Source of the DNA: a virus
Lineage: Duplodnaviria; Caudoviricetes
Length of the DNA: 64,000 nt
Virus record (IMG/VR): IMGVR_UViG_3300047281_000029
Coordinates: 1,013-65,012 of that record
Reading direction: 5' to 3' (one strand)
Position numbers and translations under genes: made by a program. The first letter of the stretch is position 1, and every line of letters begins with the position of its first letter. The notes beneath the pieces are model-generated. The model made no database searches. It was not told where the DNA came from and was given only the letters and a program-made list of their open reading frames with translations. Positions 1-19,914 of the stretch are shown here, piece by piece.

Positions 1-336
1 ATAATATTTTATGAATTTGATTACTGCGTTGTATGTTGCTTCTATTTTTGTTCTCTCGAATGTTTCTACAATTGGTAGTGGATATCGGTTGTCTACAATA
101 TTAACGGATGTCATTAGAATTTCAAAAACATATTGAGAAAGTCCTTCTTCATCCTCTATCTCTTCTATCTTATCCACTGCCTTTATTAACCAGTTCCAGT
201 CATAATTAAATGATAGTATGGTTAATGGTGACTCGTCTTTTTTATACCAATAGGTAGAGTTTGGATAGTCGGGATGAGGTTGTACATAACCTAAAAATTC
301 TGCTATCAGTTTGTTGTTATCTGCTATTGTGCACAT
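1..336 (-). CDS. Hypothetical Bacteroidota-phage protein, runs off the window edge (not in ORF track)
   Basis: Manual translation MCTIADNNKLIAEFLG...YDWNWLIKAVDKIEE...ATYNAVIKFIKYY; open to position 1. Confidence 0.7.
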   Translation of the reverse strand, partial: MCTIADNNKLIAEFLGYVQPHPDYPNSTYWYKKDESPLTILSFNYDWNWLIKAVDKIEEIEDEEGLSQYVFEILMTSVNIVDNRYPLPIVETFERTKIEATYNAVIKFIKYY

Positions 337-596
337 AGTTCCCAAGTGTTAAGTTGTTTTACGTTTTGTTTTGTTAGTCCTAGTTCCTTTACAATAAACT
401 TGGCTAGCTTCTTGTTGCCTATTGTACCTTCGTCTATCACGTTTGTTCCAATGTAACTTGCCACGTATGATGGCGGTGTGTTTAGTACTCTATTGCAAAA
501 CTTTACGTCTTGACCTAGGAAGAATTGTTTTCTGTTGTACTCTAGTGTCCAGTTACGACCGAACCCGTACTCTCCTTGTGTGATAATTACTCTCAT
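324..596 (-). CDS. Hypothetical early protein (likely start 596, MRVIITQ)
   Basis: AT-rich TTAATTAATAAC leader before ATG at 596; the longer start at 710 lies inside a tRNA-like element. Confidence 0.7.
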   Translation of the reverse strand: MRVIITQGEYGFGRNWTLEYNRKQFFLGQDVKFCNRVLNTPPSYVASYIGTNVIDEGTIGNKKLAKFIVKELGLTKQNVKQLNTWELCAQ

Positions 597-619
597 GTTA
601 TTAATTAATTTAAAGTTAG

Positions 620-760
620 TGAAGAGGGCAGGACTCGAACCTGCACTATGATTTTTATCGAATCTTAAAAACATATTTACAATGACTGGATTTTTTATAC
701 TTAACTCCATAAGTTAAATCATATTAAGTATTTAGCGTCTTCCTTTTCCGCCACCTCTTC
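620..760 (-). ncRNA. tRNA-like element (Leu-type D arm) with a ~90-nt insert in place of the anticodon/variable arms
   Basis: GAAGAGG/CCTCTTC 7-bp acceptor stem plus discriminator A; TG GCG GAAAAGGAAGA CGC D arm; GCAGG TTCGAGT CCTGC T arm. Confidence 0.75.
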
Positions 761-772
761 GTGTGCTAGCAG

Positions 773-991
773 TTACTCTGCTAGTCTTTGTATTGTTAGG
801 TTGGTGCTTGTTTTAATTCTCTCTAGCGTGTCCTCGTGCTTGTCCTCGAACCACTTCGGTACATCTACAACTACTAGGTAGTCGTTAACTATCGTGTGCT
901 CGAATGACTTCGGGATAAAGAACGGCTGACCACCATCGTCGATAGTCAGCGCGTTGTTAGATAGTTGTCTGCGGTATAGTTGTAGTGTCAT
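773..991 (-). CDS. Hypothetical early protein
   Basis: ORF; start MTLQ overlaps the upstream stop. Confidence 0.65.
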   Translation of the reverse strand: MTLQLYRRQLSNNALTIDDGGQPFFIPKSFEHTIVNDYLVVVDVPKWFEDKHEDTLERIKTSTNLTIQRLAE

Positions 992-1236
992 TTTATTTCC
1001 TCCCATTTTATAATTTTATTTGAGTCTGCTGGTATGTGGTCTCCTCCAAATCCGTGAGGCATTAACCTCCCGTTAAAACTTTGATATTCAGGTGGTATAG
1101 CAAAATTATTAAACAACTTATTATAAAAACCTCTCTTAGTTACTATCTCTTCTCGACTTTTACTTTGGTAATCTCCAAATCGTATTGTCTTTTTATACGT
1201 TATCATAACGTCTTCGTATGGATTAGGTAGTGTCAT
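988..1236 (-). CDS. Hypothetical early protein
   Basis: ORF translationally coupled to both neighbours. Confidence 0.65.
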   Translation of the reverse strand: MTLPNPYEDVMITYKKTIRFGDYQSKSREEIVTKRGFYNKLFNNFAIPPEYQSFNGRLMPHGFGGDHIPADSNKIIKWEEIK

Positions 1237-1559
1237 TATCTTATAAAGTATTGGTTATCAAACTTGTATCGTTGTCCGTTGAAGTTCTGTGCGTACACTA
1301 GCAGGTCGAACTGGTCTGTGCTTACCGCGATGCAGTTCTGTGTTAGTATCGTTGCCAGCTCTTCAATCTTCTTGATGAAGTGACTTGTCCTTGCGTATGG
1401 ACTTTCTAACTCGACAATCAGAGTCGGTTCGTGCTCGTCCTCGTATCGTCCGATGCCGAACTTATACGTGTCGATGGTGTAGTCCTCTCTTAACTTGTTG
1501 ATGATTGCCTCTTGGCTCAATGGGTTGTTGTTTAGTCCGATGTTTAAAATTGCTTTCAT
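1236..1559 (-). CDS. Hypothetical early protein
   Basis: ORF with TTAATTAATTATC leader. Confidence 0.7.
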   Translation of the reverse strand: MKAILNIGLNNNPLSQEAIINKLREDYTIDTYKFGIGRYEDEHEPTLIVELESPYARTSHFIKKIEELATILTQNCIAVSTDQFDLLVYAQNFNGQRYKFDNQYFIR

Positions 1560-1564
1560 GATAA

Positions 1565-1876
1565 TTAATTAAAGTGTTTATAGGTTACGTTTTTGTTGTC
1601 TCCGAATAGGAACTTGTTTATCTTGTTGTAGATTTTTGAGATGATTTTCGCCATAATGATTTGCCTTTTCTTAATATGTAATTTGATTGGTGCTTGTTTA
1701 GTCCGTGATGGCTTGCCCAGTTCGTTGCGCTTAGCCAGTTGTTTACGTAGTCTAGGTATAGACGTTCTATTTCGTTGTTGCTATGATACTGCATATGCTA
1801 GTAGATTAAAGATTACTATTACTAATACAATTGTTACCTGTAGGTATAGTCTACCTTGTTTTTGTGATTTTGTCAT
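1565..1876 (-). CDS. Three overlapping small ORFs: 1781-1876 (31 aa, hydrophobic), 1618-1794 (58 aa), 1565-1654 (29 aa)
   Basis: Manual translation: MTKSQKQGRLYLQVTIVLVIVIFNLLAYAVS; MQYHSNNEIERLYLDYVNNW...; MAKIISKIYNKINKFLFG...; the first has the conserved early leader. Confidence 0.55.
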
Positions 1877-1894
1877 GATGTTATTAATTAAATT

Positions 1895-1944
1895 GGTTAA
1901 GACGCCTCTCGGCGTTTCGATCATTTAGATCTCATCAGTTAACC
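1895..1944 (-). ncRNA. Hammerhead ribozyme, type I (HHR1)
   Basis: GGTTAA-CTGATGA-GATC TAAAT GATC-GAA-ACGCC GAGA GGCGT-C^TTAACC; complete core, GUC cleavage triplet. Confidence 0.93.
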
Positions 1945-2292
1945 TTAGTAATAGAAGATCTGAGGCAGGTTCTTCGTTTGCTCTCTTAGTATCTGTCTGT
2001 TTGAGTTGTTGTTTGCTATAGTTCCAGCGTCAACAAAGAATATTGCGTTATCATTAAAGCATCCTGTACTTAGTCCGCCGTTAGATAAACAACTAGAGTA
2101 GCTTAGCTTCTGACAGAATCTTATTCCGTCTGCTATATATATTGCGTACACATCTTCCGTGTCATCAAAGAACGTGCACTCATCTTTAGAGTATAACTCT
2201 ATTGTGCGTTTCCATGCGCTTGGATTGTAGTCGTTACGCTTGTGGTTGATTGCTTCTTCCTTTGTGATTTGTTTTGCTTGAATTGTTCTCAT
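1945..2292 (-). CDS. Hypothetical early protein flanked by HHR2 and HHR1
   Basis: 115-aa ORF with conserved AT-rich leader. Confidence 0.75.
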   Translation of the reverse strand: MRTIQAKQITKEEAINHKRNDYNPSAWKRTIELYSKDECTFFDDTEDVYAIYIADGIRFCQKLSYSSCLSNGGLSTGCFNDNAIFFVDAGTIANNNSNRQILREQTKNLPQIFYY

Positions 2293-2310
2293 GATAATAA
2301 GTAATTAAAT

Positions 2311-2365
2311 GTTATAGACACACCCGATGGATGTGTTTCGACTATTGAAGTCTCGTCAGTATAAC
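2311..2365 (-). ncRNA. Hammerhead ribozyme, type I (HHR2)
   Basis: GTTATA-CTGACGA-GACT TCAAT AGTC-GAA-ACACATCC ATC GGGTGTGT-C^TATAAC. Confidence 0.93.
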
Positions 2366-2592
2366 TATTTTAGTTTTGTTTTGATGAACCAGTAGGCTCC
2401 CTGTATTCCTTCATCGTCAAGTTTAAATGATGCTGACTCAGAGACGCTATCTTCTGCCCATCCTGTGAAGTAGTATTTTATATCTATCTTGTTTACGTGT
2501 CCATGATAGTCTACAAACCATGTTTTGAATGTTGCTTGGTTTTGTTCTACTGCTACTGCTACTAATTCGAATAAATCTTTTAATGTTTTCAT
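2365..2592 (-). CDS. Hypothetical early protein flanked by HHR3 and HHR2
   Basis: 75-aa ORF with conserved AT-rich leader. Confidence 0.75.
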   Translation of the reverse strand: MKTLKDLFELVAVAVEQNQATFKTWFVDYHGHVNKIDIKYYFTGWAEDSVSESASFKLDDEGIQGAYWFIKTKLK

Positions 2593-2605
2593 GATAATAA
2601 TTAAT

Positions 2606-2660
2606 TAACGTTTCGTCGTTCTGCGACTCATCAGCATGGATAACACATCCATGTACGTTA
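2606..2660 (-). ncRNA. Hammerhead ribozyme, type III (HHR3)
   Basis: TAACGT-A^CATGGAT GTGTT ATCCATG-CTGATGA-GTCG CAGAA CGAC-GAA-ACGTTA; GUA triplet. Confidence 0.93.
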
Positions 2661-2989
2661 CACGTCTATCCCTATTTAGGTAGCTCGTGGTCCTCGGTTT
2701 CTACGCCAGAGTGGACTTACCCTATTTTATCCTGTTTTATCAGTCCGCCACTTTTTACATCTGTGGTCTCGATGGTTTGTTCGTTAGTGCAGGTGATTGA
2801 TAGTTGATGTCTTTAGGATTGTAAAGCCTGTCTCGTCTCTTCCCTTTACTTTCACTGCCTCTCATTGGGTCAGGTAGGGATGAAGTTTCTAGTTTGCTAT
2901 CCTGCTGATTATCAAGCAGTTAGAAGCTAACTTGCTGGAAATCAATCACTTACAATAAAATTAAGAACGTGTCGCTCATTTGAACACTG

Positions 2990-3021
2990 CAATAGTACGG
3001 CGGGTATTTCAATCCTGCAAA
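2990..3021 (-). promoter_or_regulatory. Bacteroidota sigma-A-type promoter for the early transcript
   Basis: TTTG-N20-TACTATTG, one mismatch to the TTTG-N19-21-TAnnTTTG consensus. Confidence 0.6.
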
Positions 3022-3401
3022 TAAAAATTAAAAAAAAATCACTTTTGTATGCATTTTTATGACATTCTCAGTGAATTGATTATTTTGATGAGAATAATGC
3101 AACAGATTTGTGTTGATATTGAGGATTATGCAAGGAAATTGAACGAAGTTTGATTAACGTGTTGATTATCAGTGTTTTACGGATTGTATTTGCTTACTAT
3201 TGGATTTGATAGTGGTGGGATGGGGCTGGGGTTATTTCAAGTCTCTATATATCTGAGCACATATTTTTACGAATCGATGCATAAATAATCCGATAAACCC
3301 AATAACAACAAGGTCTGACAAGGTATTTTCGTTCATTTTAATTCACTCTAGGATTGATTACGATAATCTCATGACGCGGGAAGTCCCGTCATTGCTGGGT
3401 T

Positions 3402-3666
3402 TATGTCGAGTTTTAGAAATTTATGTCGATTTTATGTCGAGTTTTTTGAGTTAACTAACTGATAATCAATAATCTATGTCGATATGTCGATTTTTACTAT
3501 CCTAAATAGATTTAAAAAAAAATAATATATATATAAAAACGTATAGAGCCTATATAGGGATAACATTGACATTTCGACATAAATCAAGACAAAGTCTTTA
3601 TTGGTGTGGCCTAGCGCCATGACGCAACGAAAAAATCTTGTCATTTGTCGACATAAAACGACATAG
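3402..3666. repeat. Iteron-like TATGTCGA repeats around an AT-rich core (candidate ori or packaging signal)
   Basis: TATGTCGA at 3402, 3422, 3433, 3475, 3483; inverted copies at 3574, 3648 and partial 3659. Confidence 0.65.
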
Positions 3667-3739
3667 AACGTCATGGATTAGGCGCTTAAATAGATTAAGT
3701 TGTCATTTCGTATCTTTGCATAAACTAAAAATGTATATT

Positions 3740-3937
3740 ATGAAAGTATGTAGCAAGTGTAAAATTGAATTGGATTATGATTGTTTTAATGTAGACAAGA
3801 CTAAACTGGATGGACTACGTCCAGATTGTAACAAATGTAGAAAGCAAGTGACACAGAAGTATATTAGTACAGATGAATTCAAGGAAAGGAAAAAGGAATT
3901 GAATAGACTATATAGACTCGCTCATTCTGTCAAGTAA
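3740..3937 (+). CDS. Small zinc-ribbon protein resembling the N-terminus of phage HNH/EndoVII nucleases, possibly truncated
   Basis: MKVCSKCK...F.VDKTKLDGLRPDCNKC; promoter TATCTTTG at 3711. Confidence 0.55.
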   Translation: MKVCSKCKIELDYDCFNVDKTKLDGLRPDCNKCRKQVTQKYISTDEFKERKKELNRLYRLAHSVK

Positions 3938-4235
3938 AAAAAGGGAACTATAGGTACGTATACGTGCGCGTATAGTAGTACGTGTATGCGTGTGATATAG
4001 TAGACACCTGCGTGTATGGGTAGGGCAGTCCAGAAAAAGCCAAAAATTCTCGGCAAGTCCAGTGAAATCGGTACCCCACCCTTGATTTTTAAGTCGTTTT
4101 CGTTTTGGCATCCCATCCGCAATATCTATATATAACCCACACACCACACATATCTAACATGTTCAATAAAAACCGGCGTTCATTGTCAATGAACACACGA
4201 CACCTATATCTGACATTTTTTATTATATTTGCAGC

Positions 4236-4439
4236 ATGAGCAGATCAACAAAAAAACCAATAATGAAGCACAGCCCAAAAGGACGCAGGGCCCTTTACTG
4301 GAGAACAACCCGTCGTATAATCAACGAATCCATACGCCAACAAAAGGAGACGCTTCCGCTTGAGAAGGAGATCGTAAACGACTACGACTACAGCGACTAC
4401 AGATTTTTTTCTGATAGGCCTTGCGACACTAGAAAATAA
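4236..4439 (+). CDS. Hypothetical basic protein
   Basis: ORF directly after a TATATTTG promoter. Confidence 0.7.
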   Translation: MSRSTKKPIMKHSPKGRRALYWRTTRRIINESIRQQKETLPLEKEIVNDYDYSDYRFFSDRPCDTRK

Positions 4440-4455
4440 TTTATATATTTGCCCT

Positions 4456-4677
4456 ATGAAAGACGAGTACATTAAACTACGAACCCAAGCCGACATGTCG
4501 ATCAGTTGGTTCCATAAGTACTTTATGGACAAGACTGGAAAGAGCATCCACTTCAATCACTTCCACATGATATTCATGAACGGGGACATTCACGAGGTGA
4601 TGAATTACCTTGACAAGCAGTTCGACCTGACCTTAGTCATCGGTAAGAACGGTAACGTAATTAAAGTAGTAGAGTAG
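4456..4677 (+). CDS. Hypothetical protein
   Basis: ORF directly after a TATATTTG promoter. Confidence 0.7.
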   Translation: MKDEYIKLRTQADMSISWFHKYFMDKTGKSIHFNHFHMIFMNGDIHEVMNYLDKQFDLTLVIGKNGNVIKVVE

Positions 4678-4681
4678 AGGT

Positions 4682-4876
4682 ATGAGTTTATTTAAAATTA
4701 AAGGTTTAAGATATATTAAGGGATTTAAAAATAAGATACTTTATATTTTAAAGATACAGCCATTCTGTACAAAAGGAATAGAGAATTATAATTATAAGTG
4801 CATTAGATTTGAATTAAAAAACGGGTCTTGTATTTACTGCGGCGCTACTAAAGATAAATATAGCTGGCATAAATAA
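4682..4876 (+). CDS. Hypothetical protein (CxxC)
   Basis: ORF following the upstream gene by 4 nt. Confidence 0.5.
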   Translation: MSLFKIKGLRYIKGFKNKILYILKIQPFCTKGIENYNYKCIRFELKNGSCIYCGATKDKYSWHK

Positions 4877-4942
4877 CGTAGTTGTCCGACGGTTATGAGA
4901 CCTGCCTAGCGGTGCAGGTATAAAGAGGCAACGAACCGCAAC

Positions 4943-5022
4943 AGTCAGGTGGGCGTAATGAGGGATGGTCCCGAATCCATGAGATACTGGTTGCTTATCC
5001 GGTTCGAGTCCGGCCCTGACAC
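4943..5022 (+). ncRNA. Degenerate tRNA-like element
   Basis: GTCAGG/CCTGAC acceptor-like stem and CCGG TTCGAGT CCGG T arm; no canonical D or anticodon arm. Confidence 0.55.
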
Positions 5023-5175
5023 GATAAGCGTTTCGCGGTTAAACGGAAAAACACGCCGTGCGGAGTGACCTTCAGAGGTGGTCGATAAAGAACTCGAAAC
5101 GTGATAGTACATGAAGCTCATGTTATAAGTAACTATCGAAGTGCGACTTAGGACGACGCTGTCTAAGTGGAATAA

Positions 5176-5244
5176 TACCGGTTGGTGTAATTGGTAACAC
5201 GATGGTTGATCCATCAGATAAGGGTTCGAATCCCTTACCGGTAT
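5176..5244 (+). tRNA. tRNA-like gene (Gln-type body) with an aberrant 5-nt anticodon loop
   Basis: TACCGGT/ACCGGTA; GTGT AATTGGTA ACAC; GATGG TTGAT CCATC; AAGGG TTCGAAT CCCTT. Confidence 0.7.
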
Positions 5245-5369
5245 CAACAGCCCTGCTCGCGAGGGGATCGTAAAACACAACACACTTCTCGTAAGATCAG
5301 TGCGCTCATGTTGTTCTCATCGTATAGGAGATAGAGTTAGATTTCTCGACGTCGTTCAAAAAATCAACC

Positions 5370-5443
5370 GGTCCCGTAGCTCAGTTGGTTAGAGCGTCTG
5401 ACTCATAATCAGGATGTCCATGGTTCGAGCCCATGTGGGACCA
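5370..5443 (+). tRNA. tRNA with CAT anticodon, probably Ile2 (lysidine) rather than Met
   Basis: Full cloverleaf GGTCCCG...CT CAT AA...TGGGACC A; C4-G69 and C5-G68 are TilS determinants; no encoded CCA. Confidence 0.9.
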
Positions 5444-5502
5444 CAAACAGTACCTTCGACGCTACCCGTAGAACAGCGTCCCAGCGAAGGTCGTTTACTT
5501 AA

Positions 5503-5548
5503 GGCATCGGTTTAGGCTCGGGATGTCCCGGGCGCCGATGTTTTTTTT
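5503..5548 (+). terminator. Probable intrinsic terminator ending the ncRNA island
   Basis: GCATCGG...CCGATGT stem followed by a T8 tract. Confidence 0.55.
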
Positions 5549-5681
5549 GTCACATATAAAGTTGGCAAATACCGGCGATAATTGCCGTTATTATATAGGT
5601 GGGTAGAACAGGTGGGTAGATATGTTCATTTAAAATCAGCGTTCATTGTCAATGAACAGTAACAAAAAATAAAATTATATT

Positions 5682-5927
5682 ATGAAAAACGAGTTTATAC
5701 AAGTAGAGATAGAAGTTTACAATAGAGAACTTGCTGATCTTGGAGTTGAATCAAAGGAATCAATATGGGCTGATGCAGTCATAAACGAATCAGAAGTAGC
5801 TGCCATAAGAGCTTCACTAGATAATAATGATCGTTGTGTTATATACTTGAAAAATGGAGATAACTTTATAATTAGAATGCATCTTTATGAGGCGGTATGG
5901 CTATTTACTGGAAAAAAATTCGAATAG
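5682..5927 (+). CDS. Hypothetical protein
   Basis: 81-aa ORF, AT-rich leader. Confidence 0.65.
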   Translation: MKNEFIQVEIEVYNRELADLGVESKESIWADAVINESEVAAIRASLDNNDRCVIYLKNGDNFIIRMHLYEAVWLFTGKKFE

Positions 5928-6001
5928 AATGTTCGATATTCTAGACATTTCTAGATATTTTGTGTATAATAACAATCAAATAATTTTATTACCTTTGTAG
6001 C

Positions 6002-12150: not shown

Positions 12151-12864
12151 ATGACAAAAATAAGTACATACGTTATAGATGACAAGGTTACCTCACTAGA
12201 TAAGTGGATTGGTTCTGATGCTAATATGCAGAACAAAACAAAAAACTTTACACCTAAGAAGCTAGCCGAGTATTTTAATGAGAATCAGATAATTAATATC
12301 GGGGTTCCGCTTCAGTACAAGTACTATACTTTAGAGCCTTTAGAATCAAGACCTAACGGAACGTTAACGTTTGAGACTGAGATAGGTCCTACCGTTAACT
12401 TTTCTTCTATAAGCACATTTATATTAAGTAAGTACACAACAAAGCAAAATATAGTATCTGATTTTTTAGACTTCTTAGATAAATCTAAGGTATTACTATT
12501 TAAATCTAGCGATATAAATTTCTTTGGATTTTATAAAATAACAAGTATAGAGCCGTACGAAGCGGATCCTAACTTCTTTGTTGTTACTGTGGAATACGAG
12601 ACTGGTCATGGAGCGCTAGAAGAGGACGAGGATTATATGATATCACTTGTTGCTCTTGAAGAATCCTTGGACAAGACGTTTATCTTTACACAGGACACGC
12701 CTGCTAATCCTTGGATAGTAAATCATAACCTAAATAAATTTCCGTCAGCCACAATGGTCTTGTCTACAGGACAGGTAGGTATTGCGGACATTGTATATAT
12801 AGACGCAAATAACTTAACAATAACTTTTTCTGGAGATGAATCTGGGAAAGCATACATGAACTAA
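12151..12864 (+). CDS. Putative virion structural protein
   Basis: C-terminal WIVNHNLNKFPS...LTITFS..SGKAYMN fibre-type module. Confidence 0.65.
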   Translation: MTKISTYVIDDKVTSLDKWIGSDANMQNKTKNFTPKKLAEYFNENQIINIGVPLQYKYYTLEPLESRPNGTLTFETEIGPTVNFSSISTFILSKYTTKQNIVSDFLDFLDKSKVLLFKSSDINFFGFYKITSIEPYEADPNFFVVTVEYETGHGALEEDEDYMISLVALEESLDKTFIFTQDTPANPWIVNHNLNKFPSATMVLSTGQVGIADIVYIDANNLTITFSGDESGKAYMN

Positions 12865-12866
12865 TT

Positions 12867-14189
12867 ATGGCAATACAGTTTTTAAATAACTTAAATATTA
12901 ACGACAACCAGCTATTGAACGCTAAGGTTCAGGTTGCTTCAACTGCCCCTACAGCTGCTAAGGGACAAATATACTTAGATAGTACAACAAACGTTAATAC
13001 ATTAAAGTATCACGACGGAACAGAATGGATAGGTTTAAAGCAAGTAAATCTTAACAACAGTACATTTGTTAGCTTAACTAATTTAAGTGCAGCAGGAAGC
13101 AATGTAATCAGTTTAGAGGCTAGTTTATCAGCTACAGGTACAAAGGATAGCACTACATTTTTAAGAGGAGACAATACATGGGCTGCTCCATTACAATATG
13201 CTGGATGGTATATTGATGGAGATAGCGGAATTTCTAGCTTAATAAATTCTGGAGAGACTGCTTACTTTGTAGGAGGAACAGCTATTACAACTGTTGTTGG
13301 TTCTGATACATTAACAATTAACCACGACTCTGTATCAAGAAGTGATACTACTTCTACATCTACTCCGTCATTTGGAGGGACCTTCACAGCTGTTGATAGC
13401 GTTACAAGTAATACTGAGGGTCATATAACAGGATTAAACTTAAAAACAGTTACAATACCAGCATCTCCTACAATTACATTGACAGGAGACGTTACTGGAT
13501 CTGGAACAACTTCTATTGCAACAACAATTGCTGCTGGAGCTGTAGAATTTGCAATGATGGATCCTACAGTAATTATTACTTCAAGCGAAGGTATAGGAAG
13601 CAACAATAATGACGTTACGTTACCAACAAGTGCAGCGGTTAAGTCTTATGTTGATTCTGCTGTTGCTGGAGGATTAGTATATCAAGGAGGGTACAACGCA
13701 TCTACAAACACACCTAACTTAGATTCTCCTCCAACAGGTACGATCAAGAAAGGATTTATGTGGACTGTTACAGCTGATGGATTATTCTTCACTGAACAGT
13801 TAAGAGTAGGTGATTCTGTAATAGCAGAAGTTGATTCTCCAACTACACTAGCAGATTGGACAACTGTTCAGGGTAATGTTGACTTAGCTACACTTTCAAC
13901 TGTAGGTATTGGTAATGTAAATGCAGGGACTGGTATTAGTGTATCTTACTCTAGTGGTACCGCTACTGTAAGCACTGTATCAACTTCAACATCTGGTCAA
14001 ATTACAGCTGGATCCTTGTCTGGTACTGTAAGCCATGCTTTTGGATTAAACACTATGGTTCAAACATTAGATGCAATAACTGGAGATACAGTATATTGCG
14101 ACGTTACTAGAACAACATCATCAGTAACAGCTACAATAGCAGCTGCAAATGCTAATAATATAATTATTTTAGTACAAAAAATAGGATAA
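12867..14189 (+). CDS. Putative tail fibre / structural protein
   Basis: Thr/Ser/Gly-rich; FLRGDNTW, LTGDVTGSG and PTSAAVKSYVD fibre motifs. Confidence 0.7.
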   Translation: MAIQFLNNLNINDNQLLNAKVQVASTAPTAAKGQIYLDSTTNVNTLKYHDGTEWIGLKQVNLNNSTFVSLTNLSAAGSNVISLEASLSATGTKDSTTFLRGDNTWAAPLQYAGWYIDGDSGISSLINSGETAYFVGGTAITTVVGSDTLTINHDSVSRSDTTSTSTPSFGGTFTAVDSVTSNTEGHITGLNLKTVTIPASPTITLTGDVTGSGTTSIATTIAAGAVEFAMMDPTVIITSSEGIGSNNNDVTLPTSAAVKSYVDSAVAGGLVYQGGYNASTNTPNLDSPPTGTIKKGFMWTVTADGLFFTEQLRVGDSVIAEVDSPTTLADWTTVQGNVDLATLSTVGIGNVNAGTGISVSYSSGTATVSTVSTSTSGQITAGSLSGTVSHAFGLNTMVQTLDAITGDTVYCDVTRTTSSVTATIAAANANNIIILVQKIG

Positions 14190-14202
14190 TAAAATATAAT
14201 AT

Positions 14203-17200
14203 ATGAAATTTAAAAGCGATATAGAGGTCCAAGCGGGTCTGAAGGATTCTTCAGGCTCTAATGGATCATCAGGCCAAGTATTATCTTCAAATGGCACAAC
14301 GGTTAGTTGGGTTAACGCAGGTGGTGGCGTTGCTAGTGATGTTCAGAATTTAGTTAAAGCAGGTGTCGCTATAAATAAAGGCCAAGCTGTATATGTTACA
14401 AGTGCTGACGGAACAAATATAATCGTTGGATTAGCATCGAATACAACAGAGGCTACTTCATCAAAAACACTAGGTTTACTTGATGCAACAGTTGCTATAA
14501 ATGGAATGGCTAATGTAGTGCAGATAGGTAGATTAGAAGGTCTTAATACTTTAGCCGCAACTGTTGGTGATCCTGTTTGGTTAGGGGCTAATGGTAATCT
14601 TATTTATGGGTTAATAAATAAACCTTACGCACCATTACATTTAGTATTTATCGGGGTTGTTACAAGGGTAAATGCTAACAACGGTGAAATATTTGTAAAT
14701 GTACAGAATGGATTTGAGCTTAACGAAATACACGATGTAGACCTAAAGACTAATGTCCCTATTAACGGTGATATTCTTGGATATAACGGTACATTATGGG
14801 TAAATAAAACAATAGCAGGATGGCTAGGATATACTCCTGCAAATCAAGCAATAACTATAGCAACTACTGCTCCTTTATCAGGTGGTGGTGATTTATCAGC
14901 AAATAGAACATTATCTATAAGCCAAGCTGGAGCTGCGTCAAATGGTTATTTAAGCGCAAACGATTGGGGTATATTTAACGGTAAGCAAAACGCTTTAAAT
15001 GGAACTGGATTTGTAAAAATATCAGGAACTACTATAAGCTATGACAATAGCACGTATACACCAACTTCAAGAACAATTACAATTAACGGTGTTACTCAGG
15101 ATTTAAGTGCAAACCAAACATGGACAATCGCTAGTGGTGTAACATCTTTCAATACAAGAACAGGAGCTATTACATTAACATCAGGTGATCTAACTACAGC
15201 CTTAGGATACACCCCTGTAACCGATTCAAGAACAATTACAATTAATGGCGTAGCCCAAGATTTATCAGCTAATAGAAGCTGGACAGTAAGTTCAACTGTT
15301 ACTTCTGGATTTAGTTTAGTAAACCAAGGAGCAGCAAGTAACACTCCATCTTCTCCAACAGCAAATATGGGTGTATTTGTTGATACTTACGCTTTTATAG
15401 ATTTAGCTACAGCCCATCCTGACGGAGGTTGGATTGATTTTAGTAAGGCTAATGGAACTGATTATGCAGGAAGAATTAGATATAATAATACTAGTGATTA
15501 CCTTAGTATAGCTGCTGGATCTAATGAACAAGTTAGAATATTTAATTCAAATGCAGAGGCTTTAGGTTCTTTTAGATCCCCTATATTTTACGACTCAAAT
15601 AATACCGGATTTTATTTAGATCCATCTGGATCATCGGTACTTAACGGAACAGTTGTTATCAAAGGAAATGATAATCAATTAGCAATAGACGGCACTACAG
15701 GCGGATTGGCATCGGGGTTATTTTTTAGGGAGTCTGGAGTTGACAAATATGAACTTTACCATTATAGTGGTGAATTTAGATTTTATAACTATACAACAAA
15801 CCAACAAGAAATGAGCATTAATAATGCTAGTGGTTTTGTTACATCAAGAACTTCTTTTAGAGCTCCAATATTCTACGATTCAAATGATACTAGTTTTTAT
15901 ACAGACCCTGCGTCAACAAGTAATTTAAACAAATTAAGAATAACTTCTGCTGGTAATAGCGCTGGCGGTAATATATTAATGGGGCCTGCCGGAGAAGGTG
16001 TAGGTAAATGGTCTTATCTAACGGGCACACACTATAATGCAACTTCGCAATCGAAGGGTGTATCAATTATAGGACTATATGCGTCAGCGTCTGAAAATGC
16101 TATTTCAATTGGAGGTAATATTTATGAGGCTAACCCGGCTACTGAAATAAGATTTTATACCCATAATGCAATAACACATGATACAGGCGGTAGTGTAAGA
16201 ATGGTTATTAATAGTGCTGGTAATGTTGAGGCTAACGTTGATATGAGAGCTCCAATATTCTACGATTCAAATAATACTGGGTATTATGTTGATCCAGCTT
16301 CAACAAGTAATTTAAATGGGTTAACAGTCGCTAATACAATAACTGGTAATATATCTGGAAATGCTAATTCATTAGGTAGTATTGCTGCGGATAGATTTGT
16401 ATATGGAGATGGAGCAAATGGTAGATCAAAGGGAATGAGTAGTGGAAATGCTAATACATCCGATTCATCTAACTCATCTGGATTTTATTTTGGAACTAAT
16501 GTAACTGGTATGCCTGGATCTGACTGGTGGAACTGGCTTACGGTGGCTGGTAATTCATGGTCAGGAAGTGATGGGTATAGATGGCAAATGACTGGGTCAT
16601 TTTGGTCTGATGATTGGAGATTAAGAAGAATGACATCTGGTTCTTGGAGCAGTTGGGTGTCATTATTACATTCAGGGAATTATAATTCATATTCTCCAAC
16701 TCTAACAGGAGGTAATGCTTCTGGTACCTGGGGAATAAATATAACTGGTAATGCGGCAACAGCAACAACATCAACCAGTTCAAGTTATTCAAATATGGAT
16801 TATTTGATGAGTGATAGAGATTTTCCTAATGGGACGCTTATTCAAACATCTATTAATTACAACAACTCTGAAGGAGACGCCTTTATATTAGAAATAAAAG
16901 GGAATGCGTATGGCAACGGAATGCCAATGGACATTCAAATACAAGGTTATATATATGCAAATACAATAATAAATACAGGAGGATACTCTAATGGTTTTCA
17001 AGTTAGTAGTATTTCAGCTATAAGATTTGGCGGTAATCTTTGTTTCTGGTTTCCTTCTCAAGGATATTGGAATGGTTATACAGTAAAGGTATATAGTGCA
17101 TTTAGCGGAAGACAAGCAAACAAAGTAACAAGTATAAGTAATTCTGGTTTGCCAACAACAGATAAAATAGTTAATTTTACTACTGCCCAATCTTTACGAT

Positions 17201-18189
17201 CAGATAATTACAGAGGATATTCTAACTTTTTAACTTCTGTATACGGGCCTAATTATTACGACTCAGATGATACTGCTTATTACGCTAACTTTGCATCTAC
17301 GTCTGACATTGCAGTTAAACAAAGAGGTGGAACAATGCACGGTCCAAATGTTACGTGGGGTGCTTACTTGTTAGTTGGCGGTGATGGTAGACAGAACTAC
17401 ACTGACACAACAGTAGCATCTGTATGTACTACTAATGGAAACCTTCATTTGGATTCTGGTAGCGGGTATAGTACTCATATAAATTTTTACGATGGTAATG
17501 ATATAATATTTGGTAATGGAGCAAATACTGAAATAGGTAGGGTTTATAACGCTGGTTATTTACAAATGAGTGGTAGTGTTAGAGCAGCGTTGTTTTATGA
17601 TTCAAATAATACAGGATATTATTTAGACCCAGCTTCTACAAGTAATTTATATGATTTAATCATAGCAGGACAATCTCATAAATATCTTTTCATTAATCCA
17701 GGTAATGGTTATGAGGCTATGGTTAGGTACAATGGAGGATCAGGTAGCAGTTGGTATTCTGGAAAAAGAACAGCAAATACAACGCAAGCTGGTACTGATG
17801 GTTTTCATTTTTACTCAGATGCTGCAGGAGATACTGTAGTCGGGTTTGGAGCTGATGGAACTATACGAGGTAAAGGTGATGTTGTTGCTTATTCATCATC
17901 CGATAGACAATTAAAAGACAATATAAAACCAATAGAAAATGCTTTAGAAAAAGTAAAACAAATAAGTGGATATACATTTGATTGGAATAATAAGCAAACT
18001 ATATACGAAGGTCATGATGTAGGAGTTATTGCTCAAGAGATTGAAGCAGTATTACCAGAAGTTGTTACAACAAGAGATACAGGATTTAAGGCTGTTAAAT
18101 ACGAAAAAATTGTACCTTTGCTTATTGAAGCAATAAAAGAACAACAAACACAAATAGAAGAATTAAAACAACTAATAAAAAATAAATAA
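14203..18189 (+). CDS. Long tail fibre with C-terminal intramolecular chaperone (peptidase S74)
   Basis: SSDRQLKDNI...GYTFDWN...VGVIAQEIE...LLIEAIKEQQ; repeated RAPIFYDSNNT modules. Confidence 0.9.
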   Translation: MKFKSDIEVQAGLKDSSGSNGSSGQVLSSNGTTVSWVNAGGGVASDVQNLVKAGVAINKGQAVYVTSADGTNIIVGLASNTTEATSSKTLGLLDATVAINGMANVVQIGRLEGLNTLAATVGDPVWLGANGNLIYGLINKPYAPLHLVFIGVVTRVNANNGEIFVNVQNGFELNEIHDVDLKTNVPINGDILGYNGTLWVNKTIAGWLGYTPANQAITIATTAPLSGGGDLSANRTLSISQAGAASNGYLSANDWGIFNGKQNALNGTGFVKISGTTISYDNSTYTPTSRTITINGVTQDLSANQTWTIASGVTSFNTRTGAITLTSGDLTTALGYTPVTDSRTITINGVAQDLSANRSWTVSSTVTSGFSLVNQGAASNTPSSPTANMGVFVDTYAFIDLATAHPDGGWIDFSKANGTDYAGRIRYNNTSDYLSIAAGSNEQVRIFNSNAEALGSFRSPIFYDSNNTGFYLDPSGSSVLNGTVVIKGNDNQLAIDGTTGGLASGLFFRESGVDKYELYHYSGEFRFYNYTTNQQEMSINNASGFVTSRTSFRAPIFYDSNDTSFYTDPASTSNLNKLRITSAGNSAGGNILMGPAGEGVGKWSYLTGTHYNATSQSKGVSIIGLYASASENAISIGGNIYEANPATEIRFYTHNAITHDTGGSVRMVINSAGNVEANVDMRAPIFYDSNNTGYYVDPASTSNLNGLTVANTITGNISGNANSLGSIAADRFVYGDGANGRSKGMSSGNANTSDSSNSSGFYFGTNVTGMPGSDWWNWLTVAGNSWSGSDGYRWQMTGSFWSDDWRLRRMTSGSWSSWVSLLHSGNYNSYSPTLTGGNASGTWGINITGNAATATTSTSSSYSNMDYLMSDRDFPNGTLIQTSINYNNSEGDAFILEIKGNAYGNGMPMDIQIQGYIYANTIINTGGYSNGFQVSSISAIRFGGNLCFWFPSQGYWNGYTVKVYSAFSGRQANKVTSISNSGLPTTDKIVNFTTAQSLRSDNYRGYSNFLTSVYGPNYYDSDDTAYYANFASTSDIAVKQRGGTMHGPNVTWGAYLLVGGDGRQNYTDTTVASVCTTNGNLHLDSGSGYSTHINFYDGNDIIFGNGANTEIGRVYNAGYLQMSGSVRAALFYDSNNTGYYLDPASTSNLYDLIIAGQSHKYLFINPGNGYEAMVRYNGGSGSSWYSGKRTANTTQAGTDGFHFYSDAAGDTVVGFGADGTIRGKGDVVAYSSSDRQLKDNIKPIENALEKVKQISGYTFDWNNKQTIYEGHDVGVIAQEIEAVLPEVVTTRDTGFKAVKYEKIVPLLIEAIKEQQTQIEELKQLIKNK

Positions 18190-18548
18190 TGGCAATTACT
18201 TACACATTTTTAACAGACGACACAATGAAGCTGGAGATTGCTCCAGTATTAGGAGATTTAACAGATGTAGTTACACGCGTAAGATACAATTACGTAGGAG
18301 TAGACGAAAACGGAGTAGATGGAACATTTGCAGGAGCAACACCTATGCCGCTTCCAGAAGATACAGAAAACTATATTCCTTTTGCAGATTTACAACCAGA
18401 GGATGTTGTAGCTTGGTTAGAGGTAGTTTCTGATAAAGTACACATGCAAGAGCGTATTGCAAAGCAAATTGAAGCTAAAATAGCTCCTAAGTATGAGCCT
18501 GTACCTTCTCCATGGGCACCTCCAACACCTCCAACACCAGAAGCATAA
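18189..18548 (+). CDS. Tail-fibre-associated small protein
   Basis: Coupled to the fibre gene; YIPFADL..EDVVAWL motif. Confidence 0.7.
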   Translation: MAITYTFLTDDTMKLEIAPVLGDLTDVVTRVRYNYVGVDENGVDGTFAGATPMPLPEDTENYIPFADLQPEDVVAWLEVVSDKVHMQERIAKQIEAKIAPKYEPVPSPWAPPTPPTPEA

Positions 18549-18877
18549 TGAGCGTATCTTATAAATATGAAATACAAGAATTAAGATGCGAACCTATTGT
18601 CGGTAGCTTGACTAAGGTTGTAACTGAAGTCGTCTATGAGTATATAGGTGAGTCTGAAATTGGAATTATATCAAAACTTCCAGGGCTTGTTACATTAGAG
18701 GTGCTATTAGAGCAATCATTTACTCCAATTGAAGAAATAAACGAGGCAACAGTTATTAGTTGGATTGAATCAATTGCTGATGTTAATACAGCAAAACAAA
18801 TGATTGACAATGAAATAAAGTATAAATCAGGTCTTATATACAAGGGAGATTCTTTACCTTGGAATAGTATCGTTTAA
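18548..18877 (+). CDS. Paralog of the preceding tail-fibre-associated protein
   Basis: LT.VVT.V.Y.Y.G and F.P..EI.E..V.SW shared with 18189-18548. Confidence 0.7.
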   Translation: MSVSYKYEIQELRCEPIVGSLTKVVTEVVYEYIGESEIGIISKLPGLVTLEVLLEQSFTPIEEINEATVISWIESIADVNTAKQMIDNEIKYKSGLIYKGDSLPWNSIV

Positions 18878-18887
18878 ATAATTTTCT

Positions 18888-19340
18888 ATGGCATTACCAG
18901 GACCAGGTGTACCACTGTCAATAAATATGATTCGAAATGAGCTCGGTCAATCGAGTGGATCTCTAGGATTTTTAAGTGATTGGGCTGGATTTAATGCACC
19001 TGATGCAATTTCTGATTTTTATGGTTATAGTAATAACAGTGTAGTATTTAGTAGTTCTTATTCATATACGGGAAGTCAGTCTGCTAGTTATAGCGGAACG
19101 GTTACTATTACAGGAGCTGCCGCTACGTTCAATGCTAGATCAACGTCTACTGGAAACTTTAGTACGGATACTATTATAAACATAAATGGTAACAGTAGAA
19201 GAGCTAGACAAACCACAACTGGTACGCTAAACTCAACTACTTTTACATTAACAGCAGGTACTTATAGTTATTCATTCTCTTGTCAAATATCTCCAGCTGG
19301 AGCAGGGACAGGTATAGGTCAAATAATATTCACACAATAA
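18888..19340 (+). CDS. Putative fibre-tip adhesin/structural protein
   Basis: MALP..G.LSINMIRNELG...ISDFYG N-terminus typical of fibre-attached adhesins. Confidence 0.6.
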   Translation: MALPGPGVPLSINMIRNELGQSSGSLGFLSDWAGFNAPDAISDFYGYSNNSVVFSSSYSYTGSQSASYSGTVTITGAAATFNARSTSTGNFSTDTIININGNSRRARQTTTGTLNSTTFTLTAGTYSYSFSCQISPAGAGTGIGQIIFTQ

Positions 19341-19350
19341 AAAAAATAAA

Positions 19351-19614
19351 ATGACAAAAATTAGTCAATACCCAGACGACAATGAGATCACGGTTGATGA
19401 TAAGTTAGTCGGAACAGATGCAGAGAATAGTTTAGAAACAAGGAACTTTACGTTCGCTGATGTTATTAGCTTCTTGCAACAGAATTTGTTAATACTTAAT
19501 ACACCTTCTTTTACAGGAGTTCCTGAGTATGCAAGTAATTCAGCAGCAGTATCTGCTGGACTAGCAGTTGGTAGAGTTTACAGAACAGCAGACGTTCTAA
19601 AAATCGTACATTAA
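19351..19614 (+). CDS. Small structural protein
   Basis: N-terminus similar to 12151-12864; YASNSAAVSAGLAVG.VYRT. Confidence 0.65.
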   Translation: MTKISQYPDDNEITVDDKLVGTDAENSLETRNFTFADVISFLQQNLLILNTPSFTGVPEYASNSAAVSAGLAVGRVYRTADVLKIVH

Positions 19615-19650
19615 AAAATAATTTGTATATTTGTCAAAAATTAAATTAAA

Positions 19651-19914
19651 ATGAAAAAAGTGGAATTAAAAAAAATTGAAGAAAAGGAATTGGCTAAGTT
19701 ACAAAACTTAGAAGCATTCTTTACAAAAGCTCATTCTGCATTAGGTCAATTAACATCTGACTTTGAATTTAAAAAATCAGATATAATGAGACAGATTAAT
19801 GATCAGTACATTAAGAGAGAAGAGTTCAAAAAGGAGTTATCTGAAATTTATGGAGATAACATTGTTATCGATGTAAATACCGGAGAAATTTCTGAAGCAG
19901 AAGCTCAAGCATAA
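19651..19914 (+). CDS. Hypothetical coiled-coil protein
   Basis: ORF after a TATATTTG promoter at 19626. Confidence 0.7.
   Translation: MKKVELKKIEEKELAKLQNLEAFFTKAHSALGQLTSDFEFKKSDIMRQINDQYIKREEFKKELSEIYGDNIVIDVNTGEISEAEAQA

What the first reader, a model, noticed from the sequence alone, without database searches (positions are those of the whole stretch)
1895..2660. Three hammerhead ribozymes punctuate consecutive intergenic gaps of the early operon
Seen: three complete hammerhead cores on the coding (minus) strand: a type III at 2606-2660 (GUA^) and type I at 2311-2365 and 1895-1944 (GUC^). Their stems differ in sequence but stay paired, which argues for selection on structure rather than recent duplication. 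Both type I ribozymes start at or immediately after the upstream stop codon and cut exactly 24 nt before the next ATG, and both have a UxAAU loop II. Established: hammerheads self-cleave to give 5'-OH and 2',3'-cyclic phosphate ends, and isolated ones are known from phages. Inference: the first transcript made on infection cuts itself into monocistronic RNAs (337 nt for 2365-2592, 416 nt for 1945-2292) without any protein. This would be a ribozyme analogue of RNase III processing of T7 early mRNA. Caveat: stem I of the type I ribozymes is only 6 bp, so rates could be low.
Basis: partly seen in the sequence, partly recalled or inferred. Interest (0 to 1): 0.92.

Follow-up and report, generated by a model that had tools for sequence, protein, structure and literature searches.

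The report
Three hammerhead ribozymes in phage operon
Three well-formed self-cutting hammerhead RNAs sit in front of the first three small genes of one operon in an uncultured phage of Flavobacterium-type bacteria, a real but already described arrangement whose purpose is still untested.

Summary
A descriptor scan finds exactly three complete hammerheads in 64 kb: type III at 2660-2606, type I at 2365-2311 and 1944-1895, all on the minus strand. Shuffled windows gave a mean of 0.02 hits.

They belong to a large family in viral contigs. 115 of 118 core-only pattern matches fold into full type I hammerheads, against 11 of 1180 with shuffled flanks. Covariation is strong in all three stems.

A model built only from other contigs scores the two type I sites at 65 and 60 bits. 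Rfam's own models miss all three at their gathering scores.

Same-strand arrays of up to six occur in other loci. A single type III comes first in 13 of 14 mixed arrays. Cultured Flavobacterium phage elemoE carries two unannotated ones.

Processing of a long phage transcript into gene-length mRNAs by clustered hammerheads was proposed and tested in vitro in 2011 (PMC3088659). This scan has noted the layout before on other DNA, in 345 findings. So this is a new member of a known kind.

Cleavage and early timing remain unshown here. Extras: a fixed 6-bp stem I flanked by A residues, 21-30 nt leaders, and a tRNA-like element in the equivalent position.

The parts
2990..3021 (-). Promoter-like site of Bacteroidetes type: TTTG at 3021-3018, a 20-nt spacer, then TACTATTG at 2997-2990. 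The probable transcript start lies a few bases downstream.
   Evidence: Read. Aligned with four relatives: three of them have a perfect TAnnTTTG box, and conservation stops near 2975. The consensus itself is recalled from the literature and comes from no call. Two RNA-library contigs from two studies stop at 2969 and 2968, which is only a weak hint.
2661..2985 (-). ORF-poor leader of about 320 nt that the type III hammerhead would cut off.
   Evidence: The longest minus-strand ORF here is 36 aa. Length and sequence vary among relatives: about 140-170 nt in L230, L233 and L213. RNA-library contigs cover 2679-2969, 2784-2968 and 2841-3019.
2606..2660 (-). Type III hammerhead. Cut after A2654, so the 3' product starts at 2653. 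The ribozyme body stays on the downstream mRNA, 61 nt before ATG 2592.
   Evidence: Rfam Hammerhead_3 gives 19.7 bits. 19 of 20 unique IMG/VR matches to its core and stem II pattern form the full structure. Stem II changes in a compensatory way in elemoE and other loci.
2365..2592 (-). First gene, 75 aa, function unknown.
   Evidence: 99% identical protein in L118. No PHROG, Pfam or NCBIfam family.
2311..2365 (-). Type I hammerhead. Cut after C2317, so the 3' product starts at 2316, 24 nt before ATG 2292. The body stays on the upstream RNA.
   Evidence: 59.7 bits, E 3.5e-14, against model R1 built from 41 other contigs. Rfam RAGATH-1-hammerhead gives 32.7 bits against a cut-off of 56.3.
1945..2292 (-). 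Second gene, 115 aa, function unknown.
   Evidence: 45% identical to a 120-aa ORF in the elemoE locus L244. No significant family.
1895..1944 (-). Type I hammerhead. Cut after C1901, so the 3' product starts at 1900, 24 nt before ATG 1876.
   Evidence: 65.2 bits, E 9.8e-16, against R1. Rfam HH9 gives 27.1 bits against a cut-off of 52.
1781..1876 (-). Third gene, 31 aa and hydrophobic. The likely start is ATG 1876, not the in-frame ATG 1924 that lies inside the ribozyme.
   Evidence: Conserved at 77-100% in L118, L233, L230 and L213.
620..760 (-). tRNA-like element in the same operon: 7-bp acceptor stem, D-like arm, T arm and a long insert. Its 3' end lies 23 nt before ATG 596.
   Evidence: ARAGORN calls a 93-nt 'tRNA-???' at the same place in L118, L233 and L187. 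The T stem covaries. Neither ARAGORN nor Rfam calls it in the window.

Best explanation
The three elements are functional cis-cleaving hammerhead ribozymes in a leftward, probably early, polycistronic transcript of an Elemovirus-like phage of Flavobacteriia.

Transcription probably starts just downstream of the conserved promoter-like site at 3021-2990.

The type III ribozyme removes the variable leader of about 320 nt. Its body stays on the 5' end of the first mRNA.

Each type I ribozyme cuts between two genes. Its folded body, ending in a 2',3'-cyclic phosphate, stays as a 3' cap on the upstream mRNA. The downstream mRNA starts with a 5'-hydroxyl and an unstructured, AU-rich leader of 24 nt.

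The result would be two single-gene RNAs of 337 and 416 nt, plus a multi-gene remainder. These could differ in stability and translation.

Shown here: the motifs, their covariation, their placement and their recurrence in related phages. Inferred: cleavage in vivo, early timing, and the effects on stability and translation.
For: Motifs and chance: exactly 3 full hammerheads against a mean of 0.02 in shuffles. All invariant core positions are intact. The minimum-free-energy folds match the hammerhead junction.

Selection on structure:
- 115 of 118 unique viral-contig matches to a pattern that fixes only the core and stem II also form stems I and III, against 11 of 1180 with shuffled flanks. For type III it is 19 of 20 against 6 of 400.
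- On 41 gap-free type I sequences, none from the window, 99.7% of cells pair and 14 of 16 pairs change on both sides. The covariation score is 0.80 against 0.17 when shuffled and at most 0.09 when slid.
- The ten highest mutual-information column pairs are all predicted base pairs.
- Model R1 finds the two type I sites at 65.2 and 59.7 bits and nothing else in the window.

Placement:
- Hammerheads lie on one strand only in 139 of 139 loci.
- Median spacing is 537 nt.
- Arrays reach up to 6.
- The cut lies 21-30 nt before the next ATG of an ORF of at least 30 aa in 135 of 221 type I hits. For type III it lies 54-62 nt before in 17 of 30.
- A stop codon of an open frame of at least 40 codons ends within -4 to +10 nt of the motif start in 139 of 185.
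- A single type III is the 5'-most element in 13 of 14 strands that carry both types.

Relatives keep the layout while the genes change. ElemoE has a type III before gp59, the first gene of a block of 23 small minus-strand genes, and a type I between gp64 and gp66.

Precedent: three tandem prophage arrangements cleaved as expected in vitro, and one in E. coli (PMC3088659, passages).
Against: No cleavage data exist for this phage. The RNA evidence was assembled contigs only, which cannot show ends.

One RNA-library contig (X2) carries the type III motif identical over 2604-2657 and continues past the cut site into different flanks. Uncut RNA or DNA carry-over therefore exists somewhere.

Rfam gathering scores are not reached.

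The ribozymes are dispensable in the clade:
- Model R1 finds no type I in 5 of 5 relatives with 73-78% identical terminase, three of them 100% complete by CheckV.
- Two of those relatives have a single type III. The other three gave no full hammerhead with the pattern used.
- The gene at 1559 has a hammerhead in L118 and L233 but not in the window or L230.

The same AU-rich leader precedes ATG 1559 and ATG 596 without a hammerhead, so cleavage is not needed for every gene.

Early timing is not tested.
Confidence: 0.75

Rival explanations
1. Junction modules for gene shuffling. The hammerhead plus the shared AU-rich leader is mainly a repeated boundary sequence at which small-gene cassettes recombine between phages. 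Cleavage is incidental or secondary.
For: The genes right after the type III motif differ among close relatives, and the number of type I motifs varies from 0 to 3. Homology with L233 and L230 begins at window 1893/1894, exactly at the 3' edge of the hammerhead. With L118 it begins at 1949, just before the motif. Hammerhead-plus-leader stretches of 52-79 nt match at 80-93% in non-equivalent places of several loci.
Against: A recombination sequence needs sequence identity, not compensatory pairing. Yet every stem position shows 3-5 Watson-Crick pair types while the catalytic core is invariant. The shared leader occurs without a hammerhead as well, so the leader alone could serve as the junction. 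The two readings are not exclusive.
Confidence: 0.12
2. Conditional cleavage. The ribozymes act as switches. Because the upstream stop codon abuts or overlaps stem I, a terminating ribosome would unfold the ribozyme. Cutting would then report whether, or when, the upstream gene is translated, or respond to Mg2+ or a factor, and so set timing or decay.
For: The stop codon ends within -4 to +10 nt of the motif start in 139 of 185 unique type I hits, in some cases inside the core. In the window the offsets are +1 and 0. Perreault et al. raise regulated cleavage for phage hammerheads (PMC3088659, passages).
Against: There is no aptamer-like extra domain. The motifs are minimal (50-55 nt) and fold as the lowest-energy structure. 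Tight packing alone explains the abutting stops. Mutual information shows no alternative pairing partner for core or loop nucleotides.
Confidence: 0.08
3. Circular or ligated RNAs. The doubly flanked 337- and 416-nt RNAs, which carry 5'-OH and 2',3'-cyclic phosphate ends, are joined by a host RtcB-type ligase into circular mRNAs.
For: The end chemistry would fit such a ligase (established knowledge, no call). Perreault et al. mention the possibility.
Against: Reading the sequence, the two ends of each fragment come from different ribozymes. Joining them would not rebuild a hammerhead or any helix that holds the ends together. Perreault et al. looked for spliced or circular products in their systems and found none (PMC3088659, passage). 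The laid contigs showed no back-joints (table 5), but contigs are poor evidence here.
Confidence: 0.03
4. Inactive relics or chance look-alikes with no present function.
For: Rfam gathering scores are not reached. Several relatives lack them.
Against: Chance expectation is 0.02 per window. All core positions are intact. There is strong covariation and positional regularity across more than 100 contigs.
Confidence: 0.02

Closest known systems
Clustered hammerhead ribozymes flanking single genes or short gene blocks in prophages (Perreault et al. 2011, PLoS Comput Biol, PMC3088659; passages read)
   Same: Several hammerheads lie on one strand, close together, between small phage genes of changing identity. 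The proposed role is to cut a long phage transcript into gene-length mRNAs. The same core rules apply.
   Different: Their tested cases are prophage regions of Clostridium scindens, Azorhizobium caulinodans and Agrobacterium tumefaciens. Here it is a virulent-type podophage lineage of Flavobacteriia with leaders that lack a Shine-Dalgarno sequence. Specific to this group: an ordered layout with one type III first and type I after, a fixed 6-bp stem I with flanking A residues, and a tRNA-like element in an equivalent position.
HHphage of haloviruses HF1/HF2 (described in PMC3088659, passage read)
   Same: A hammerhead lies just upstream (13 nt) of the first ORF of an early polycistronic transcript. 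The mapped 5' end lies within 3 nt of the cut site. This matches the role proposed for the type III motif at 2660-2606.
   Different: It is an archaeal virus with a variant core that needs high Mg2+, and a single ribozyme, not an array.
RNase III processing of the T7 early transcript (recalled textbook knowledge, no call)
   Same: It works alike: intercistronic cuts turn one early RNA into separate mRNAs, and a folded element is left at the 3' end of the upstream product.
   Different: T7 uses a host protein enzyme that leaves 5'-phosphate and 3'-OH ends. Here the RNA cuts itself and leaves 5'-OH and 2',3'-cyclic phosphate. This is an analogy only, not membership.
Rfam RAGATH-1-hammerhead (RF03152) and Hammerhead_HH9 (RF02275)
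   Same: These are the best Rfam matches for the two type I motifs. They share type I topology and a similar stem II.
   Different: The scores of 32.7 and 27.1 bits are far below the cut-offs of 56.3 and 52. The upstream hairpin of the RAGATH-1 model is matched only through a 22-nt insertion with mismatched pairs (alignment). I do not file the motifs under either sub-family.
Type I hammerheads in 5' UTRs of fungal RNA viruses that enable translation initiation (Lopez-Galiano et al. 2026, PMC13725137; abstract and outline read)
   Same: A type I hammerhead sits just upstream of a viral ORF, and self-cleavage is reported as needed for translation. This gives a precedent for a translational role of the cut itself.
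   Different: These are eukaryotic hosts with cap-independent initiation and RNA genomes. Nothing is shown for bacteria or DNA phages.

Membership tests
Hammerhead ribozyme (Rfam clan CL00010) | Invariant core: C3 U4 G5 A6 N7 G8 A9, G12 A13 A14, the A15.1-U16.1 pair, and H17 at the cut site. | tested here: met
   All three motifs carry CUGA(U/C)GA, GAAA, and U followed by A or C at the right places. The criteria are as listed in PMC3088659 methods.
Hammerhead ribozyme (Rfam clan CL00010) | Three helices around the core, with the pairs next to the core formed (10.1-11.1, 1.1-2.1, 15.1-16.1). | tested here: met
   Stems I/II/III are 8/4/5, 6/4/7 and 6/4/4 bp. The minimum-free-energy folds reproduce them.
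Hammerhead ribozyme (Rfam clan CL00010) | Helices supported by compensatory changes in relatives. | tested here: met
   14 of 16 pairs change on both sides, and the covariation score is 0.80 against 0.17. In type III, stem II changes from GUCG/CGAC to GUCA/UGAC and GCCA/UGGC.
Hammerhead ribozyme (Rfam clan CL00010) | Score at or above the curated gathering score of an Rfam hammerhead model. | tested here: not met
   There is no hammerhead at gathering scores. The best scores are 32.7, 27.1 and 19.7 bits against cut-offs of 56.3, 52 and 48.5. This is a threshold of particular seed alignments, not a structural criterion. The family-specific model R1 gives 60-65 bits.
Hammerhead ribozyme (Rfam clan CL00010) | Site-specific self-cleavage 3' of H17, giving 5'-OH and 2',3'-cyclic phosphate ends. 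| not testable with these tools
   Only assembled contigs of RNA libraries were available.
Hammerhead ribozyme (Rfam clan CL00010) | [quoted passage not shown] | tested here: inconclusive
   No covarying pseudoknot partner was found for loop II. However, A at -1 and A at +1 of stem I are near-invariant (159 and 158 of 161). Stem I is 6 bp in 173 of 185. Loop II is a 5-nt U-start loop. These hold also among the 72 family members not chosen by my search pattern: A in 64 of 72, 6 bp in 61 of 72.
Clustered gene-flanking phage hammerheads (Perreault et al. 2011) | Two or more hammerheads close together on the coding strand, flanking single genes or short blocks. | tested here: met
   Three lie within 766 nt and flank a 75-aa and a 115-aa gene. 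The same layout occurs in relatives.
Clustered gene-flanking phage hammerheads (Perreault et al. 2011) | Phage or prophage context. | tested here: met
   The source is a 65,012-bp virus record that CheckV rates 100% complete. It encodes terminase, portal, tail fibre and GroEL. Its terminase is 73% identical to MW202828.1 and 46% to Flavobacterium phage elemo.
Clustered gene-flanking phage hammerheads (Perreault et al. 2011) | The polycistronic RNA is cut into the expected pieces. | not testable with these tools
   This needs transcription assays or end mapping.
RAGATH-1 hammerhead (RF03152) | Type I hammerhead with the conserved upstream hairpin, scoring at or above 56.3 bits. | tested here: not met
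   Scores are 32.7 and 19.9 bits. The upstream hairpin columns align poorly, through long insertions.

The most novel reading that the evidence does not exclude
In phages of Bacteroidetes-type hosts, whose ribosomes do not use Shine-Dalgarno pairing, the hammerheads are interchangeable devices for making 5' ends. In this operon a tRNA-like element, presumably cut by RNase P and RNase Z, does the same job. Each places a free 5' end 21-30 nt in front of a start codon, so an internal gene becomes a 5'-proximal one that ribosomes can load on.

The order of one type III first and type I after sorts the folded ribozyme bodies so that every coding RNA keeps a protective structure, while the non-coding leader keeps none.

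Evidence that fits: the distance peak (135 of 221); the tRNA-like 3' end 22-23 nt before the ATG in the window and three relatives; type III first in 13 of 14 mixed arrays; and leaders that stay unpaired in the folds.

Evidence that does not fit: the same leader works without any processing element at ATG 1559, and several relatives lack type I motifs altogether.
Probability: 0.2. Interest if true: 0.65.

Novelty: new member of a known kind. Interest (0 to 1): 0.35.

Why it matters
The biological purpose of clustered phage hammerheads has been open since 2011. This case adds no new principle, but it offers a practical way in.

The same two ribozyme types sit, unannotated, in cultured Flavobacterium phages of the genus Elemovirus. 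In NC_055854.1 one of them lies under a probably spurious CDS. End mapping and core mutants could therefore be done in a laboratory phage-host pair.

The case also shows that a large hammerhead subfamily in viral metagenomes falls below Rfam's thresholds, so routine annotation misses it.

The family has regular features that any functional model must explain. These are a 6-bp stem I with flanking A residues, 21-30 nt leaders and a type III in first position.

Tried and rejected
Rfam at gathering scores gave only two tRNAs. The whole-window E-value scan added no other ribozyme class: no twister, pistol or hatchet at E up to 10.

Megablast of window 1-6000 against the phage collection found no match.

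PHROGs, Pfam and NCBIfam on the small operon proteins gave nothing above cut-offs. The functions of the flanked genes stay unknown.

The exact Bacteroidetes promoter pattern TTTG-N18-22-TAnnTTTG gave 2 matches in the window, neither near the operon and no more than chance. The site at 3021-2990 has one mismatch and rests on the alignment.

RNA libraries: only Logan contigs with small word shares (0.05-0.12) were available.
- Two 40-nt X1 contigs align to 2281-2316 and so stop at the predicted first base of the 3' product. They are only 86% alike and carry 2 unaligned letters at each end, so I draw nothing from them.
- No contig bridges 2679 to 2600 in the window's own context, which is likewise no evidence.
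- An X4 contig (2166-2308) runs on into a hammerhead-like core with a different loop and ends inside it. This shows a relative with another ribozyme before that gene, and shows no RNA end.
- An X2 contig holds the type III motif in other flanks.
- No joints were listed.

Mutual-information search for a pseudoknot partner of loop II: none found.

Distance from tRNA 3' ends to the next ATG in hammerhead-bearing loci: 52 same-strand tRNA calls, mostly from two near-identical tRNA arrays. Only about a dozen lie 4-25 nt before an ORF, too few independent cases to support tRNA/hammerhead interchangeability beyond this clade.

Model R1 on five relatives' whole records gave 0 of 5. I report this as real variation, since the pattern control found the window's own three sites.

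Circular-RNA reading: judged unlikely from the sequence and the passage.

Papers:
- For PMC3088659 and PMC6765202 I saw only the passages returned by 'find'.
- For PMC13725137 I saw the abstract and outline.
- Searches for hammerheads in Flavobacterium phages or Elemovirus listed nothing on this. I therefore know of no printed report for this phage group, within that library only.
- Supplementary alignments of PMC3088659 were not seen and may hold this subtype.
Full report
**What the window is**

The window is bases 1013-65012 of a 65,012-bp virus record that CheckV rates as 100% complete. It encodes GroEL, a large terminase, a portal protein, tail-fibre proteins, helicases and an exonuclease. 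The terminase is 73.5% identical to that of an uncultured podovirus, MW202828.1. It is 46% identical to those of Flavobacterium phages of the genus Elemovirus, and Cellulophaga phages also match. The host is therefore probably a member of the Flavobacteriia. This is an inference from relatives.

**Checking the observation**

My own descriptor requires CUGANGA, a closed stem II, GAAA, stems I and III, and U followed by A, C or U at the cut. It finds exactly three hits in the window on both strands:
- type III at 2660-2606, cut 2654/2653;
- type I at 2365-2311, cut 2317/2316;
- type I at 1944-1895, cut 1901/1900.

One hundred Markov shuffles gave a mean of 0.02 hits. A looser core pattern matches only these three places in the window and in the whole virus record. 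With flanks included, each motif folds into the three-way junction as its lowest-energy structure, and the short leaders downstream of the type I motifs stay unpaired.

The stop codons of the upstream genes (2367-2365 and 1947-1945) touch the type I motifs. Both type I cuts lie 24 nt before the next ATG, and the fragments are 337 and 416 nt.

Rfam does not report the motifs at gathering scores. In E-value mode the best matches are:

| Rfam model | bits | cut-off |
|---|---|---|
| RAGATH-1-hammerhead | 32.7 | 56.3 |
| HH9 | 27.1 | 52 |
| Hammerhead_3 | 19.7 | 48.5 |

**Are they under selection?**

I scanned IMG/VR with two patterns that fix only the core, the outer stem II pairs and loop II. 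The type III pattern hit 22.

Stems I and III were not part of the patterns, so they give an unbiased test:
- 115 of 118 unique type I matches with full flanks form the whole ribozyme, against 11 of 1180 with shuffled flanks;
- 19 of 20 type III matches do so, against 6 of 400.

On 41 gap-free type I sequences, none from the window:
- 99.7% of cells pair;
- 14 of 16 pairs change on both sides;
- the covariation score is 0.80, against 0.17 for shuffles and at most 0.09 for slid partners.

These 41 were chosen by a descriptor that demands pairing, so the paired percentage is inflated. The counts of pair types and the test carry the weight. The ten strongest mutual-information pairs among 161 sequences are all predicted base pairs. 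A covariance model built from the 41 sequences scores the window's type I motifs at 65.2 and 59.7 bits and finds nothing else in the window.

**Family features**

Among 185 unique type I hits:
- stem I is exactly 6 bp in 173;
- its outermost pair is G-C in 164 of 178.

The bases just outside stem I are A in 159 and 158 of 161. These features were not in my search pattern. They also hold among the 72 unique neighbours that the pattern did not select: 6 bp in 61 of 72, and A in 64 of 72 on each side.

Loop II is UNAAU by construction in the selected set. In the unselected set it is a 5-nt loop starting with U in 52 of 54, and UNAAU in 20 of 54. The 6-bp stem I looks selected, not a defect. A tertiary contact through the invariant A residues is possible but not shown.

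**Layout**

The descriptor finds 251 hammerheads (221 type I, 30 type III) in 142 loci. 59 loci have two or more, and one has six. Some loci overlap or repeat a record.
- After I dropped seven duplicate loci, hammerheads lie on one strand only in 139 of 139 loci.
- Median spacing is 537 nt.
- In 13 of 14 strands with both types, a single type III is the 5'-most element.
- The type I cut lies 21-30 nt before the next ATG of an ORF of at least 30 aa in 135 of 221. The type III cut lies 54-62 nt before in 17 of 30, because its body stays downstream.
- A long open frame ends within -4 to +10 nt of the type I start in 139 of 185.

In the window the operon junctions are:
- leader to first gene: type III;
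- first to second gene: type I;
- second to third gene: type I;
- then overlapping genes;
- a 58-nt gap with only the shared AU-rich leader before ATG 1559;
- more overlaps;
- a 176-nt gap before ATG 596 that holds a tRNA-like element.

**Relatives**

Close relatives share the operon frame but differ in the first genes and in ribozyme number:

| Locus | type III | type I |
|---|---|---|
| L118 (terminase 95% identical) | 1 | 3 |
| L233 | 1 | 2 |
| L213 | 1 | 2 |
| L115 | 1 | 2 |
| L226 | 1 | 1 |
| L237 | 1 | 1 |
| L240 | 1 | 1 |
| L230 | 1 | 0 |

- The 107-aa gene has a hammerhead before it in L118 and L233 but not in the window.
- The 31-aa gene has one in the window, L118 and L213 but not in L233 or L230. 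There, homology starts exactly at the motif's 3' edge.
- Of five relatives with 73-78% identical terminase, none has a type I match. Two have one type III each. Three gave no full hammerhead with the pattern used.
- ElemoE (NC_055854.1) has a type III before gp59, the first of 23 small minus-strand genes. It also has a type I with a bulged stem III between gp64 and gp66, under a plus-strand CDS (gp65) that is probably spurious. No ribozyme is annotated in the stretch I fetched.

The ribozymes are thus recurrent but dispensable, and they travel with variable gene cassettes.

**Upstream of the first ribozyme**

A site resembling the Bacteroidetes promoter consensus lies at 3021-2990. The consensus is recalled from the literature and comes from no call. 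The site is conserved in four relatives, three of them with a perfect TAnnTTTG box, and conservation ends near 2975. The leader between it and the type III motif varies in length and sequence.

Contigs from RNA libraries of three studies cover parts of 2679-3019. Two of them, from two studies, stop at 2969 and 2968. This is a weak hint of a transcript start and shows only that the leader is present in RNA libraries.

**Mechanism**

The best reading is self-processing of a polycistronic RNA. Type III trims the leader and stays on the first mRNA. Type I stays as a folded 3' end on the upstream mRNA and gives the downstream one a short, unstructured 5'-OH leader.

The motifs, their selection and their placement are shown. 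Cleavage, timing and consequences are inferred. Rivals are listed separately: junction modules for cassette shuffling, conditional cleavage coupled to translation, circular RNAs, and relics.

**Comparison with what is known**

Perreault et al. 2011 reported that multiple hammerheads flank single genes or short blocks in prophages. [quoted passage not shown] A 2019 review repeats that the purpose is undefined (PMC6765202, passage). A 2026 paper reports that type I hammerheads in 5' UTRs of fungal RNA viruses are needed for translation (PMC13725137, abstract).

Library searches for hammerheads in Flavobacterium phages or Elemovirus found nothing on this group. This scan has noted hammerhead arrays in phage operons 345 times in at least 305 other genomes. 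The eight follow-ups shown mostly name the 2011 description as closest known.

**Verdict**

I class it as a new member of a known kind, with modest interest. What it adds is a testable cultured relative, a subfamily that Rfam misses, and some regularities that a functional model must explain.

Noticed in passing
window 620-760, minus strand: A tRNA-like element lies inside the same operon. It has a 7-bp acceptor stem, a D-like arm, a T arm and an insert of about 85 nt. It is not called by ARAGORN or Rfam in the window. ARAGORN does call a 93-nt 'tRNA-???' with an odd anticodon loop at the same place in L118, L233 and L187, and the T stem covaries. Its 3' end lies 22-23 nt before the next ATG, much like the 24 nt left by the type I hammerheads.
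   Followed up: partly
window 2661-2985, minus strand: The ORF-poor leader that the type III hammerhead would release is covered by RNA-library contigs from three studies. It varies in length (about 140-320 nt) and sequence among close relatives. Whether it is a stable RNA in its own right is open.
   Followed up: partly
window 1560-1577 and 597-619, minus strand: The same AU-rich leader (a TTTAATTAAT-like tract running up to the ATG) precedes ATG 1559 and ATG 596 as well as the three genes served by hammerheads. It is therefore a general start region of this phage, with no Shine-Dalgarno sequence.
   Followed up: no
window about 3400-3660: Several copies of a TCGACATAAA-like repeat lie in both orientations around an A/T-rich tract, at the point where gene orientation switches. 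This may be an origin or a protein-binding array.
   Followed up: no
L244 (NC_055854.1 16289-16396): The annotated plus-strand CDS gp65 (35 aa) lies over the minus-strand type I hammerhead between gp64 and gp66 and is probably spurious. No ribozyme is annotated in the fetched stretch 12500-21500 of the record.
   Followed up: partly
window 5176-5244, plus strand: The tRNA call here has a shortened anticodon region: the Rfam alignment shows 5 letters where the model has 9. ARAGORN labels it tRNA-Ser(tga) at only 70 nt. It may be an aberrant tRNA.
   Followed up: no
window 30712-38127 and 42094-49779, plus strand: Two giant ORFs of 2471 and 2561 aa lie in the structural region. I did not examine them.
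   Followed up: no
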